Shown one piece after another: positions 30,873 to 48,475 of a stretch of DNA of 64,000 bases (position 1 is its first letter; each line of letters opens with the position of its first letter). The stretch spans positions 109,058,001 to 109,122,000 of the forward strand of contig NC_043001.1 of the NCBI RefSeq assembly GCF_006345805.1, in the 5' to 3' direction. Below the pieces are notes generated by a model that saw only the letters and a list, made by a program, of their open reading frames with translations, was not told the origin of the DNA and did not search any database. The DNA is from Octopus sinensis (Eukaryota). The translations under genes and the position numbers were made by a program.

Positions 30873-31599
30873 ACACACTGTTATAAATTTGAGTGATATT
30901 TCACTGTCCTTTACGTTTCTATGTTCGTTAACGCTTCCTAGACCGTTGGTGCAAGGACAACAAAGCTGAAACCAGCAACTCCCCTAATCCGAGGGAGTAT
31001 TTATGGGGTCTATGGGTCTATTGATTTGAAGGACCGCCTAATTGAGGCCCCACTGACCTCCTAATTTTACTGCATTTTAAACTAAATACATGGCATTAGC
31101 GACCAAATCGGAACAATGACAATGAATTTCGTGCCATGAACTCGCAGGAAGTATGGTAACGAGGTTCAATTTCTAAAGGCCTGCTTAAAAGGGGCCCCAC
31201 TGACTACCCTATTTTTTCAGCATTTACCTCGCTTCTAAGATTGTTGATTAAATTATGATTAGCATAAGTGCTTAGCACATTTGCAGAAACTAGTATTGAA
31301 CTCGCCCTTGGGGCGACATTCTGGCTAGTATACCCATGGGTATGAGTAAGTATTTCACTTATATCTCACGTATTTATCGCTGAAGGGGGGAAAATTCTTA
31401 TGAATTAACCCCGAAATTGGGACCAACACGGTAATAACGGATGTTTTAGAAATTTCTATCGGTTTGTTTCGAGACGCATAAATTATAATGGTTATTGACA
31501 ACTTTTGTCTTCTTTTCGACATTAGAATTTTTCTTTTGCCCTTATTTTTGTAAATTATTTATAAATTTAACCTTTAAATGTATTTTTATCCTAAATTAG

Positions 31600-43491: not shown

Positions 43492-44708
43492 CATATTTGT
43501 TTTCTTGTGATTTACCTTGCATTTACTTCGCATTGTTTTGGCCTTACCTACGATCCTTTATACAATATATTCTACACAATGCTTCACAGTAACTATTCCA
43601 GGATATTTGTTCGTTTCCGCATGCAACAAACGTCCACTGCTTAATAGTAGATTTTCGATTACCGCAGTATAATCTCCGCTGATTTCCATTTTTGAGCAGT
43701 AGCATTTCGTAAAAATTCTGAAAATGAAAATATATTACAATGCATAGAAATTAAAGTACTATAACAGGTTTTAACGTTCAACCTAACTTAAGTGTAGAGA
43801 TCATACTTAAAGGAAATATATATATGAAACGACCATAGAATCATATGATCAAATCAACTGGGGAAATTTTATGAAGCCTAAGAAAATTTACTTTATATAA
43901 TGTAACCGGTAAGATTTAGAGCAGGAAATTCTGAAATATTTACAACCGTAAAGGAACGATGACAATATATTTAAAAGGTATGATCAAGCTCAACGTTTTG
44001 TATCAATTTACAGTTGTAAAAATTTAAAGCTTGATAGTAATGTTACAACAGACGTTTGGAGAAGTTAAATGTTTAAACATGGAATATTAAGTGGAGACAC
44101 AAGAGAGTCAAGATATTGAAGGAATTTCATACTTTTATTTTTAATATTCTCAAGTTACAGCATTTTCACAAATACGAGCTAAATCTGCAGCAGAAAATGT
44201 CGTTTCAAAATACAAATTGTTAATGTTACAACAACAACATTTGCAGAGCTAAAAACCAGATAATCTACGATTTATTCAACACTTCCATTTCGTGACCTTT
44301 TAGACAATTTCCTTATTCCTTTGGTATGTGTTTGTAAGCATTTATATATATATATATATATATAGGTGCATACGTGGCTGTGTGGTAAGAAGGTTGCTTC
44401 CTAACGACATGGGACAGGGTTCAGTCCCACTGCGTGTACCTTGGAAACATGTGTTCTACTATAGCCTTGGGCCGACCAAGCCTTGTGACTTGATTGGCTA
44501 GATGGAAACTGACGAAGGCTCGTCGTATATAATATATATATATATATATATATAATATTAATTTATATATAGAGGGCATTATACATACATGCCAGAAGGC
44601 ATTATAAATACATGCCACACGCTAAGAGGGACAATTAGTCATTCATACCCAAAAATATTACTAATCCCACCGAATGCAATTTTTCAAAGTAAGACATTTA
44701 AAAAATAT

Positions 44709-44756
44709 AGACCTGTATCACAGTGATTTCATACTTACGTATTCATCAGCAGGCCT
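44709..44756 (-). ncRNA. Type I hammerhead ribozyme, intact canonical core and all three stems
   Basis: AGGCCUG-CUGAUGA-AUAC(GUAA)GUAU-GAAA-UCA(CUG)UGA-UA-CAGGUCU. Stem I 7 bp, stem II 4 bp with GNRA loop, stem III 4 bp, AUA triplet. Confidence 0.85.
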
Positions 44757-44966
44757 GAATGTATTATAAATAAACAACGACCCTGCCCGCTTAAGCCGAT
44801 CAGCTAACTGATCAACATCAACGAAGCACATGGGTGAGTTTACATATATTACATCCGGATAAATGGCAAACTTTTACGAATTGCATTTCGGGAGAGGAAA
44901 AGTTTTTCGGAATAAAGGTAGTTGTCCTTAATTGCTATATATATGTATATATATATATACACCCCC

Positions 44967-45029
<63 letters not shown>

Positions 45030-45197
45030 ATATATGTAAATATATATATATTAAACATTTATACATATATGTACATGCGTGCATACATATATAATATTAT
45101 AGAAGAAACAATTCTTATTATAAATACTTATATATTCGTACATAGACATTCATATTTATTGTGTTCATCCATGCATTCATACATCAATTGTTTTAGC

Positions 45198-45297
45198 NNN
45201 NNNNNNNNNNNNNNNNNNNNNNNNNNNNNNNNNNNNNNNNNNNNNNNNNNNNNNNNNNNNNNNNNNNNNNNNNNNNNNNNNNNNNNNNNNNNNNNNN
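45198..45297. other. Assembly gap (100 N)
   Basis: Run of exactly 100 n characters. Confidence 1.
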
Positions 45298-46320
45298 ACC
45301 ACCCAAAGTACGTATTTTCCCATTGTTTGATGCAGCTCTGAAGACCGTTTTGTAGAAGACCCCAGCTTGGTCCTCCAACCACGACGTGACTTCAGAAATC
45401 AAGGCTGCATCATCTGGGAAACGCCTTCCTTTCAAAAACAACTTCATGGCTGGAAAGAGGTGAAAATCAGAGGGTGCAGGTCAGGAGTGTAGGGGGATGG
45501 GGGATGAGTTCATAGCCGCACGCCTGTGCTTCTGATCTGGCGACACGCGAGTTGTTGATCGGAGCGTTGTCCTGCAGGAGAATGCCTTTGCTGATCTTGC
45601 CCCGCCTCTTGATTTTGATAGCTTCTCTTAATTTCCTCAAAAGTGAAGCATAATAGACTCCTGTAATTGTGGCACCCTTTGCCAGGAAATCTGTCATCAC
45701 TACTCCGTCCTGGTCCCAGAGGACTGTGAGCATGACCTTTCCAGCGGAGGGCTGCACCCTTGCCTTCTTTGGAGGGGGTGAGTCACGGTGCTTCCACTGC
45801 ATTGACTGGGCTTTGGTCTCTGGATCATAGTGATGGACCCAGGTTTCATCCTGTGTAATCAGTCTTTTGAAAAATTTTGACTCATCTTCTTGGCACATCT
45901 CCAAATTCATCCTCGCGCAATCGACGCGTTCTTGCTTCTGGAAAGGTGTGAGTAACCTGGGAATCCATCTGGCAGACACCTTTTGCATATGCAAATGGTC
46001 ATGAATGATAGTTTCCATAGACCCGGTACTAATCTTGACCTCATGGGCTATTTGGCGAATAGTTATGCGTCGATCTTCCAAAATGGCAGCCTCAACTTGA
46101 CGAACAGATGCCTCATCAATGGCAGAAGGGGGCAACCAGATTTGAGAGCTGTTTCCACAGAGTTCCGACCATGTTTGAATTCACGATGCCAGCGTTTTAC
46201 AAGGTCATATGATGGGGCATCATCACCATAAGTTACTTTCATTTCATCAAAAGTCTCCCGTGGTGTGCGTCCTTTCAAATACAAAAACCGCAAAACTGCT
46301 CGACACTCAACAGGCTCCGT
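45298..46320 (-). pseudogene. Mariner transposase pseudogene, D,D34D
   Basis: Likely start decayed to ACG at 46320 (xEPVECRAVLRFLYLKG..). Motifs WIPRLL, TQDETW, QDNAP and reconstructed HPPYTPDLAPSDFHLF; 34 residues between the last two Asp. Frameshifts near 46130, 45490, 45478 and 45350. Confidence 0.93.
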
Positions 46321-47702: not shown

Positions 47703-48475
47703 GGCGACGAGCTGGTAGAATCGTTAGCACGCCGGGCGAAATGCCTAGCGGTATTACGCCTGCTGTTACGTTCTGAGTTCAAATTCCGCCGAGGTCGACT
47801 TTGCCTTTCATCCTTTCTGAGTCGATAAATAAAGTACCAGTTCCACACTGGGGTCGATATAATCGACTTAATCCTTTGTCTGTCCTTGTTTGTCCTCTCT
47901 GTGTTTAGCCCCTTGTGGGTAGTAAAGAAATAGGTATTTCGCCTGCCGCTACAGTTCTGAGTTCAATTCCGCCGAGGTCGATTTTGCTTTTCATCCTTTA
48001 GGGGTCGATTAAATAAGTACCAGTTATGCACTGGGGTCGATATAAGCGACTTAATCCGTTTGTCTGTCCTCGTTTGTCCTCTCTGTGTTTAACCCTTTGT
48101 GGGTAGCAAAGAAATAGGTATTTCGTTTGCACGTTACGTTCTGAGTTCAATTTCCGTCGAGGTCGGCTTTGTCTGTCATTCTTTCGGGGTCGATAAATTA
48201 AGTACTAGTTACACACTGGGGTCGATATAATCGACTTAATCCATTTGTCTGTCCTTGTTTGTCCTCTCTATATTTAGCCCCTTGTGGGTTGTAAAGAAAT
48301 AGGTATTTCCTCTGCCGCAACATTCTGAGTTCAAATTCCATCGAGGTTGACTTTGCCTTTCATCCTTTTGGGGTCAATATATAAAGTACCAGTTGCGTAC
48401 TGGGGTCGATCTAATCGATTAGCCCCCCCTCTCCAAAAATTTCGGTTCTTGTGCCTGGAGTAGAAAAGAATATAT
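47703..48475 (+). mobile_element. Four-unit tandem array of SINE family A inside a single 16-bp TSD
   Basis: Units start at 47703, 47933, 48117 and 48302; units 2-4 begin at internal GGTATTTC; AATATATAATGTACAA at 47685-47700 and 48469-48484. Confidence 0.9.

What the first reader, a model, noticed from the sequence alone, without database searches (positions are those of the whole stretch)
44709..44756. Fully intact 48-nt hammerhead able to fold as a monomer
Seen: CUGAUGA and GAAA cores are exact; stem I is 7 bp (one G.U), stem II 4 bp closed by a GUAA tetraloop, stem III 4 bp with a 3-nt loop, triplet AUA. Predicted cut between 44716 and 44715 on the minus strand. Unlike the other motifs, stem III is long enough not to need dimerisation. 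The flanks (44570-44935) match no other repeat in the window, so it may belong to a distinct small retroelement (retrozyme-like) or be retained by selection (inference).
Basis: partly seen in the sequence, partly recalled or inferred. Interest (0 to 1): 0.75.

Follow-up and report, generated by a model that had tools for sequence, protein, structure and literature searches.

The report
Dimer-type hammerhead in Penelope-mobilised retrozyme
This self-cutting-RNA motif is real, but it sits in one clipped copy of a young, protein-free jumping repeat with about 2,000 motif copies in the genome; it likely cuts as a paired dimer rather than alone, and the way the copies end points to pasting by a Penelope-type retrotransposon enzyme.

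Summary
The hammerhead is exactly as described and not chance (0 of 300 shuffles). It lies in a truncated copy (44555-44937) of a 479-nt non-coding tandem repeat, a non-LTR retrozyme: 496 exact cores, 2,017 with subfamilies, copies about 98% identical, inserted in (TA)n. Its intactness reflects youth, not host selection. The 'monomer' claim is doubtful. Stem III is a 5-bp palindrome around one base; the monomer hairpin is predicted at 3%, whereas two copies fold into the double hammerhead. Across related families the arms change by compensation and stay palindromic (282 of 297 motifs) while the central base is free. Insertions carry the Penelope footprint: 145 of 153 arms end at two fixed sites about 120 nt apart, and 53 of 54 head-to-head insertions, this one included, have one arm ending at each site. 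Arms often run through the cut site for several units, so the template is uncut multimer or circle. The partner enzyme was not identified; cleavage and expression are untested. The scan already reported this family and both ideas on other DNA. Verdict: new member of a known kind, with a testable mechanism.

The parts
44709..44756 (-). Type I hammerhead motif; predicted cut between 44716 and 44715
   Evidence: 0 of 300 shuffles at the strict setting
44717..44727 (-). Stem III: perfect 5-bp palindrome around one U; predicted to pair with a second copy
44555..44916 (-). Main arm of the insertion: retrozyme unit positions 277-479 then 1-160, ending at start site A; 98% identical to the 479-nt unit
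44555..44571 (-). Site A, the first fixed 3' end (unit about 144-160), merging into the (TA)n target
44571..44617 (.). 23-bp internal tandem duplication inside the unit
44918..44937 (+). Short inverted arm (unit 253-272) ending at site B; joined head to head to the main arm through one extra base at 44917
44526..44554 (.). (TA)n target tract, left side
44938..45070 (.). (TA)n target tract, right side (interrupted)

Best explanation
The motif is the hammerhead of a 479-nt non-coding tandem repeat (a non-LTR retrozyme) whose copies lie in (TA)n tracts and end at two fixed sites; it likely cleaves as a double-hammerhead dimer and is likely pasted into the genome by a borrowed Penelope-like (PLE) RT/GIY-YIG protein. 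Steps: (1) Tandem arrays are transcribed (inferred). (2) Neighbouring hammerheads pair through the palindromic stem III and cut out monomers; these would be ligated into circles in which the single hammerhead is mostly off (predicted fold; circles by analogy with PMC7229834). (3) A PLE protein would nick both strands of a (TA)n tract and start reverse transcription at two internal sites, A (about 150 nt after the cut) and B (about 272 nt after it), one for each target end (the ends are shown; the enzyme is inferred from PMC11167929). (4) Both cDNAs would run for up to several units through the cut site on an uncut multimer or circle and be joined head to head, often by 1-5 nt of microhomology (arm lengths and junctions shown). 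The window copy is one such insertion, 0.8 unit long with a single hammerhead and unit 161-252 missing, so it is likely a dead passenger.
For: Family: 1,593 candidates, the best 40 at 97-100% identity; 496 exact 34-nt cores and 2,017 with subfamilies, controls 0; 479-nt period, one hammerhead per unit, 33% GC; no ATG ORF above 48 aa in two units. Census of 88 loci: 145 of 153 arms end in windows A or B, which cover 11% of the unit; 136 of 153 are followed by TA-rich sequence; all 56 simple two-arm loci are head to head; 53 of the 54 fully held have one A and one B arm, none AA or BB (binomial 1e-16). 76 of 153 arms exceed one unit; both arms cross the cut in 32 of 54 and both exceed one unit in 15 of 54. 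5' ends are uniform, with 5 near the cut against 6.4 expected. Arms of one insertion differ by 0.84% per site, units within an arm by 1.0%, other loci by 2.9%, so both arms come from one source. A 498-nt family and a 476-nt sister family end at like positions, and both share a GCCCT motif at site A. Intact RT + GIY-YIG PLE frames that also end at (TA)n are in the genome. Dimer: the two-copy MFE is the double hammerhead, -31.1 against 2 x -12.1 kcal/mol, and monomer stem III has P=0.03; 282 of 297 motifs in 128 loci keep a perfect 5-bp palindrome, the inner pair being C-G, G-C or A-U and the centre U, G or A. RNA-level selection: circular fold z=-6.8, 0 of 60 shuffles; 15 of 109 consensus pairs change on both sides across 10 units.
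Against: No cleavage assay and no confirmed RNA data. The partner PLE was not found: 40 GIY-YIG loci show no DNA likeness to the unit beyond one separate retrozyme fragment and no site A motif, and the commonest intact PLE family seems to have about 40 nt between its two ends, not 120 (inferred from 8 matches that stop at one place). Only 21 of 142 rare variants are shared by both arms and 25 of 204 by all units; the rest may be later mutation or assembly error, but this does not prove a single circle. Loci were chosen for holding a hammerhead or for top similarity, so the count of arms crossing the cut (124 of 153) is inflated and old copies are missing. ViennaRNA ignores core non-canonical pairs and Mg2+, and did not predict inter-unit stem III in a linear tandem dimer, where it would be a pseudoknot. 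In 8 of 27 variant hammerheads the dimer MFE did not show the intermolecular stem III, and in 14 of 27 the cores were not both open. The palindromic families are related, so they are a few independent events, not 282.
Confidence: 0.8

Rival explanations
1. Same retrozyme and PLE mobilisation, but the hammerhead works mainly as a monomer; the palindrome is inherited from dimeric ancestors.
For: A 4-bp stem III with a 3-nt loop can form and is longer than the 1-2 bp of typical dimer-dependent animal hammerheads (PMC4209133, passages). The active monomer is only 2.4 kcal/mol above the MFE, a gap that core contacts and Mg2+ could close.
Against: The innermost pair cannot form in a monomer, yet it is Watson-Crick in 285 of 297 motifs with three pair types. 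Predicted monomer stem III probability is at most 0.17 in all 27 variants.
Confidence: 0.25
2. The repeat is the detached terminal repeat (pLTR) of an autonomous PLE that still exists, and the arrays are 5'-truncated PLE insertions rather than an independent non-coding element.
For: It has every PLE end signature; vertebrate retrozymes are reported to be kin of pLTRs (bioRxiv 10.64898/2026.07.22.740005).
Against: Arrays of up to 12.7 units hold only the unit. In 88 loci both outer ends are nearly always TA tracts. No pLTR match among 40 GIY-YIG loci. The whole unit folds as a closed structure with compensatory changes.
Confidence: 0.1
3. The element is mobilised by a LINE (L1/Tx1-like or RTE) with twin priming, or spreads by DNA-level duplication as a satellite.
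For: An intact L1/Tx1-like LINE lies inside several copies; L1 twin priming makes 5' inversions (own knowledge); junction microhomology is present.
Against: No poly(A) end. The second arm starts at a fixed site, not a random one, and the two arms often overlap by more than a unit. The LINE is inserted into the element in the opposite direction and most of its copies lie elsewhere. DNA duplication does not explain fixed ends at dispersed TA tracts.
Confidence: 0.05
4. A host-selected, locus-specific ribozyme, like the conserved intronic hammerheads of amniotes (recalled, not from a call).
For: Intact core; unique within the window.
Against: 496 identical cores genome-wide; 2 differences in 277 sites from the family majority; truncated mobile-element context.
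Confidence: 0.02

Closest known systems
Metazoan non-LTR retrozymes (coral, mussel, axolotl: PMC7229834, parts 2-4 of 6 read; vertebrates: bioRxiv 10.64898/2026.07.22.740005, parts 1-3 of 5 read)
   Same: Non-coding tandem units of a few hundred bases, one type I hammerhead each, low GC, strongly self-paired predicted circle, living beside autonomous PLEs.
   Different: Unit 479 nt (above the 150-450 bp of PMC7229834, within the 51-972 bp of the preprint). The parts read infer PLE mobilisation from co-occurrence and pLTR likeness and do not describe fixed RT start sites, paired A/B arms or (TA)n targeting. Circular RNA is shown there, not here.
EN+ Penelope-like elements, e.g. Poseidon PAc of Anolis (PMC11167929, parts 1-2 of 4 read) and PLE structure in 10.1101/2021.04.23.441226 / PMC8557442 (passages)
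   Same: Two internal RT start sites giving a 'tail' on one end, both target strands primed, AT-rich or microsatellite targets, partial tandems, an inverted 5'-truncated arm, uncut RNA as template.
   Different: No ORF. The two sites are about 120 nt apart instead of 30-40. The start region is AU-rich, not the AC-rich stem-loop of PAc. Here the one-arm-per-site rule can be counted (53 of 54).
Dimer-dependent type I hammerheads with palindromic helix III (newt, axolotl, PLE min-HHR; PMC4209133 and PMC6466107, passages)
   Same: Self-complementary stem III in a tandem context, predicted double-hammerhead fold.
   Different: Arms of 5 bp around a single free base, so a marginal 4-bp monomer hairpin is also possible; A10.1-U11.1 instead of G-C; no extended stem I facing the GUAA loop in the predicted fold.

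Membership tests
Non-LTR retrozyme | Type I hammerhead in each repeat unit | tested here: met
Non-LTR retrozyme | [quoted passage not shown] | tested here: met
   479-nt period; 37 of 86 loci hold two units or more. The window copy itself is a single partial unit.
Non-LTR retrozyme | No protein coding; low GC | tested here: met
   Longest ATG ORF 48 aa in two units; 33% GC; no tRNA gene in 4 loci
Non-LTR retrozyme | Highly self-paired predicted circle | tested here: met
   z=-6.8, 0 of 60 shuffles; antisense z=-4.6; 15 of 109 pairs with two-sided change
Non-LTR retrozyme | Expressed as linear and circular monomer RNA | not testable with these tools
   Only assembled contigs of runs not on record as RNA were offered
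Non-LTR retrozyme | Self-cleavage in vitro | not testable with these tools
   needs a bench assay
Non-LTR retrozyme | Target-site duplication | tested here: inconclusive
   Both ends lie in (TA)n, which hides any duplication
Autonomous Penelope-like element | RT + GIY-YIG ORF | tested here: not met
PLE-mobilised element (works like) | Two fixed internal 3' ends (tail), inverted 5'-truncated arm, microsatellite target | tested here: met
   145 of 153 arms; 53 of 54 inversions A+B; 136 of 153 followed by TA
PLE-mobilised element (works like) | Sequence likeness to the pLTR of a partner PLE | tested here: inconclusive
   None among 40 GIY-YIG loci taken from 147 matches of 5,029 candidates
Canonical monomeric type I hammerhead | Stable stem III, G10.1-C11.1, loop 1-loop 2 contact | tested here: not met
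   Stem III P=0.03; A10.1-U11.1; stem I opens into a multiloop in the predicted fold. The tertiary contact itself cannot be computed here.
Rfam hammerhead families | Covariance-model score | tested here: not met
   No hit at gathering or E<=10; the motif is short and type I variants may be missed
Double (dimeric) hammerhead | Palindromic stem III kept by compensation, in tandem context | tested here: met

The most novel reading that the evidence does not exclude
A small circular RNA is its own transposition template: a long palindromic stem III keeps the hammerhead off in the circle and on in multimers, and one PLE protein dimer starts two reverse transcriptions 120 nt apart on one circle, each rolling round it from one end of a cut (TA)n tract. 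Head-to-head retrozyme insertions would then be a direct genomic record of how PLEs make both ends, and the 120-nt A-B segment would be a portable signal for PLE insertion into TA microsatellites.
Probability: 0.35. Interest if true: 0.7.

Novelty: new member of a known kind. Interest (0 to 1): 0.45.

Why it matters
How animal retrozymes are copied into genomes is open: PMC7229834 names PLEs as strong candidates, and the 2026 preprint says the precise mechanisms remain to be elucidated. This young family gives junction-level evidence and names the exact RNA sites to test with a purified PLE protein. The one-arm-per-site rule also suggests how PLE inverted ends and tails form. The dimer-only stem III offers an answer to a puzzle raised in PMC7229834, namely why circles with an unblocked hammerhead do not cut themselves open. 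The window copy alone is an ordinary dead fragment.

Tried and rejected
Rfam at gathering and at E<=10: no hammerhead; only microsatellite hits to miRNA models. Expression: no RNA holder listed; the contigs laid cannot show ends, strand or circles, and gave no joints or end piles. Partner PLE search: 40 GIY-YIG loci gave no pLTR match and no site A motif. The idea that the hammerhead in locus L114 belongs to the intact PLE there was dropped, because it lies in a separate retrozyme fragment. Fold-back self-priming as the source of the inverted arm: rejected, 10 of 54 junctions against 6.9 expected, and the A arm is the longer one in 27 of 54. Linear cut monomer as template: rejected, no pile of 5' ends at the cut and 76 of 153 arms longer than a unit. 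L1/Tx1-like LINE as the mobiliser: rejected. tRNA-derived head: none found in 4 loci. The paper on dimer-cleaving PLE hammerheads (PMC5785218) is not held; I saw only its title in a reference list. Literature searches for this family in print (terms octopus/cephalopod, hammerhead/ribozyme, retrozyme, Penelope, inverted, microsatellite) listed no paper that describes it. Supplements of PMC7229834 and PMC4209133 were not read, and those of the bioRxiv preprint are closed; they may list such repeats. Rows dropped: L086 and L014 (an arm runs off the locus) from the pair count, 4 complex loci from the pair and single counts, unit 95-164 from the distance counts.

Full report
Observation. The motif is at the stated place and strand. 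A descriptor scan found it as the only type I hammerhead in the window: stem I 7 bp, stem II 4 bp with a 4-nt loop, stem III 4 bp with a 3-nt loop, triplet AUA. Shuffles in 500-nt blocks gave 0 of 300 hits at the two stricter settings and 13 of 300 at the loosest. The bare CUGANGA box is at chance level, 24 against 20.7. Rfam reports no hammerhead. The flanks have no second copy in the window.

The family. A search of the own genome (2.72 Gb) with 316 nt around the motif gave 1,593 candidates; the 40 scored are 97-100% identical and lie on many contigs. The 34-nt core occurs 496 times exactly and 2,017 times when two stem II positions are freed; both controls are 0. Copies form tandems of period 479 nt with one hammerhead per unit and 33% GC. 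The longest ATG frame in two units is 48 aa. The circular unit folds at z=-6.8 (0 of 60 shuffles; antisense -4.6). Against a 476-nt sister family 76% identical, 15 of 109 consensus pairs change on both sides (10 related sequences, so few independent events). This fits the non-LTR retrozymes of PMC7229834 and bioRxiv 10.64898/2026.07.22.740005. Earlier scan notes call the genome an octopus; I did not test that.

The window copy. It has a main arm 44916..44555 (unit 277-479 and 1-160), one extra base, and a 20-nt inverted arm 44918-44937 (unit 253-272), with (TA)n on both sides. It differs from the family majority at 2 of 277 scored sites. An intact core is therefore expected from youth alone. 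With one hammerhead and unit 161-252 missing, it cannot release a monomer by itself (inference).

Insertion anatomy. I mapped 88 loci, chosen by exact core or top similarity (fetched). Of 153 arms with both ends held, 76 end at site A (unit 138-166) and 69 at site B (260-283); 136 are followed by TA-rich sequence. All 56 simple two-arm loci are head to head. Of the 54 fully held, 53 have one A arm and one B arm, none AA or BB, and one has an arm ending elsewhere. The 28 single-arm loci end at A (16), B (10) or elsewhere (2). 5' ends are spread evenly, and 26 of 54 junctions overlap by 1-5 nt. 76 arms exceed one unit; both arms cross the cut in 32 of 54 and exceed a unit in 15 of 54. Arms of one insertion are as alike as units within an arm (0.84% and 1.0%) and closer than other loci (2.9%); 32 of 42 loci rank in the best tenth. 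Against a simple single-circle picture, only 21 of 142 rare variants are shared by both arms. Other families in the genome end at like positions, with a shared GCCCT motif at site A.

Meaning. PMC11167929 shows that a PLE protein nicks and extends both strands of AT-rich DNA, starts at two internal RNA sites whose spacing is the genomic tail, and uses uncut RNA. The PLE structure passages describe partial tandems, inverted 5'-truncated arms, a 30-40 bp tail and microsatellite targets. The retrozyme shows the same footprint with a tail of about 120 nt. I infer that one PLE complex primes the two target ends from sites A and B on an uncut multimer or a circle. Intact RT + GIY-YIG frames of 775-781 aa exist in the genome, and their copies end at (TA)n. 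None of 40 loci resembles the unit, and the commonest family appears to have about 40 nt between its ends. The partner is not identified.

Monomer or dimer. Stem III is a 5-bp palindrome around one base. As a hairpin it costs +0.8 kcal/mol, as a duplex it gives -10.1. The active monomer (-9.7) lies above an inactive fold (-12.1) that pairs the core with stem III, and two copies fold into the double hammerhead at -31.1. Stem III probability is 0.03 in the 48-mer, the window transcript and the circle. A genome pattern for this stem III shape gave 3,732 hits against 23 in the control; with a non-U centre, 4,265 against 413, some of them unrelated repeats. In 128 loci, 282 of 297 motifs keep the perfect palindrome in seven sequence types, the inner pair being C-G, G-C or A-U and the centre U, G or A. 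That pair cannot close a 1-nt loop, so its conservation points to pairing between copies, as described for animal type I hammerheads (PMC4209133). Limits: the folding model lacks core contacts and Mg2+; inter-unit pairing in a tandem is a pseudoknot it cannot show; 8 of 27 variants did not give the intermolecular stem in the dimer MFE. I put mainly-dimer at about 0.7.

Expression. No RNA holder was listed. Contigs of coded runs cover the unit but cannot show ends or circles. A skew to A>G is noted in passing and not used as support.

Prior scan notes. Finding e1-8807173 is the same family at another locus (checked: 93% identical, U10.1 subfamily, head to head) and reports the two-site rule and the inserted retrotransposon. 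e1-9531557 makes the palindrome argument for a 352-nt family. I had reached both readings before opening the notes; they are not independent support.

Verdict. Real motif, ordinary dead copy, known class of element. The family-level junction rule and the dimer-type stem III are not described in the paper parts I read or the searches I ran, and they make the mobilisation mechanism directly testable. Interest 0.45.

Noticed in passing
L050:2063-7347, L079, L182, L198, L201, L207: An L1/Tx1-like LINE (ORF1 with zinc knuckle, 1,138-aa EN-RT frame) is inserted in the opposite direction at the same place in the retrozyme, unit 143/144 at site A, in 6 loci. Among the 30 best 3' ends, 4 (the query included) lie there and most others lie in one other repeat, so it looks sequence-preferring.
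   Followed up: partly
L004:981-1976 (reads laid): In seven runs guessed to be RNA or of unknown kind, differences on the hammerhead strand are 52 A>G against 12 T>C; a DNA-like run gives 3 against 1 and genomic copies 33 against 38. One contig has 8 A>G in the hairpin before site B. A hint of A-to-I editing only: run type is a guess, places are not independent, and there is no matched DNA.
   Followed up: partly
window 31336-31587 (+): Decayed copy (69% to the L169 unit) of a related retrozyme family with a damaged hammerhead, ending at a site-B-like motif before (TA)n.
   Followed up: partly
window 51197, 46804 and 40403 (-): Degenerate minimal hammerhead-like motifs; only 51197 passes a loose descriptor, with 2 bp of stem I.
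   Followed up: no
window 45467-46180 (-): Mariner-type transposase fragment, Pfam Transposase_1 E=1.9e-24.
   Followed up: no
L114:1136-5979 and L113-L125: Young intact PLE family with two ORFs (479 aa, and 781 aa RT + GIY-YIG), copies 96-99% identical in protein, ending at (TA)n; no CUGANGA hammerhead found near its ends.
   Followed up: partly
genome-wide: The larger subfamily has U10.1 facing U11.1 at the base of stem II, and others have G or A there, which would tune cleavage rate.
   Followed up: no
window 47750-48418; 45198-45297: A 184-bp tandem repeat of 3.6 copies; a 100-base run of N close to the element.
   Followed up: no
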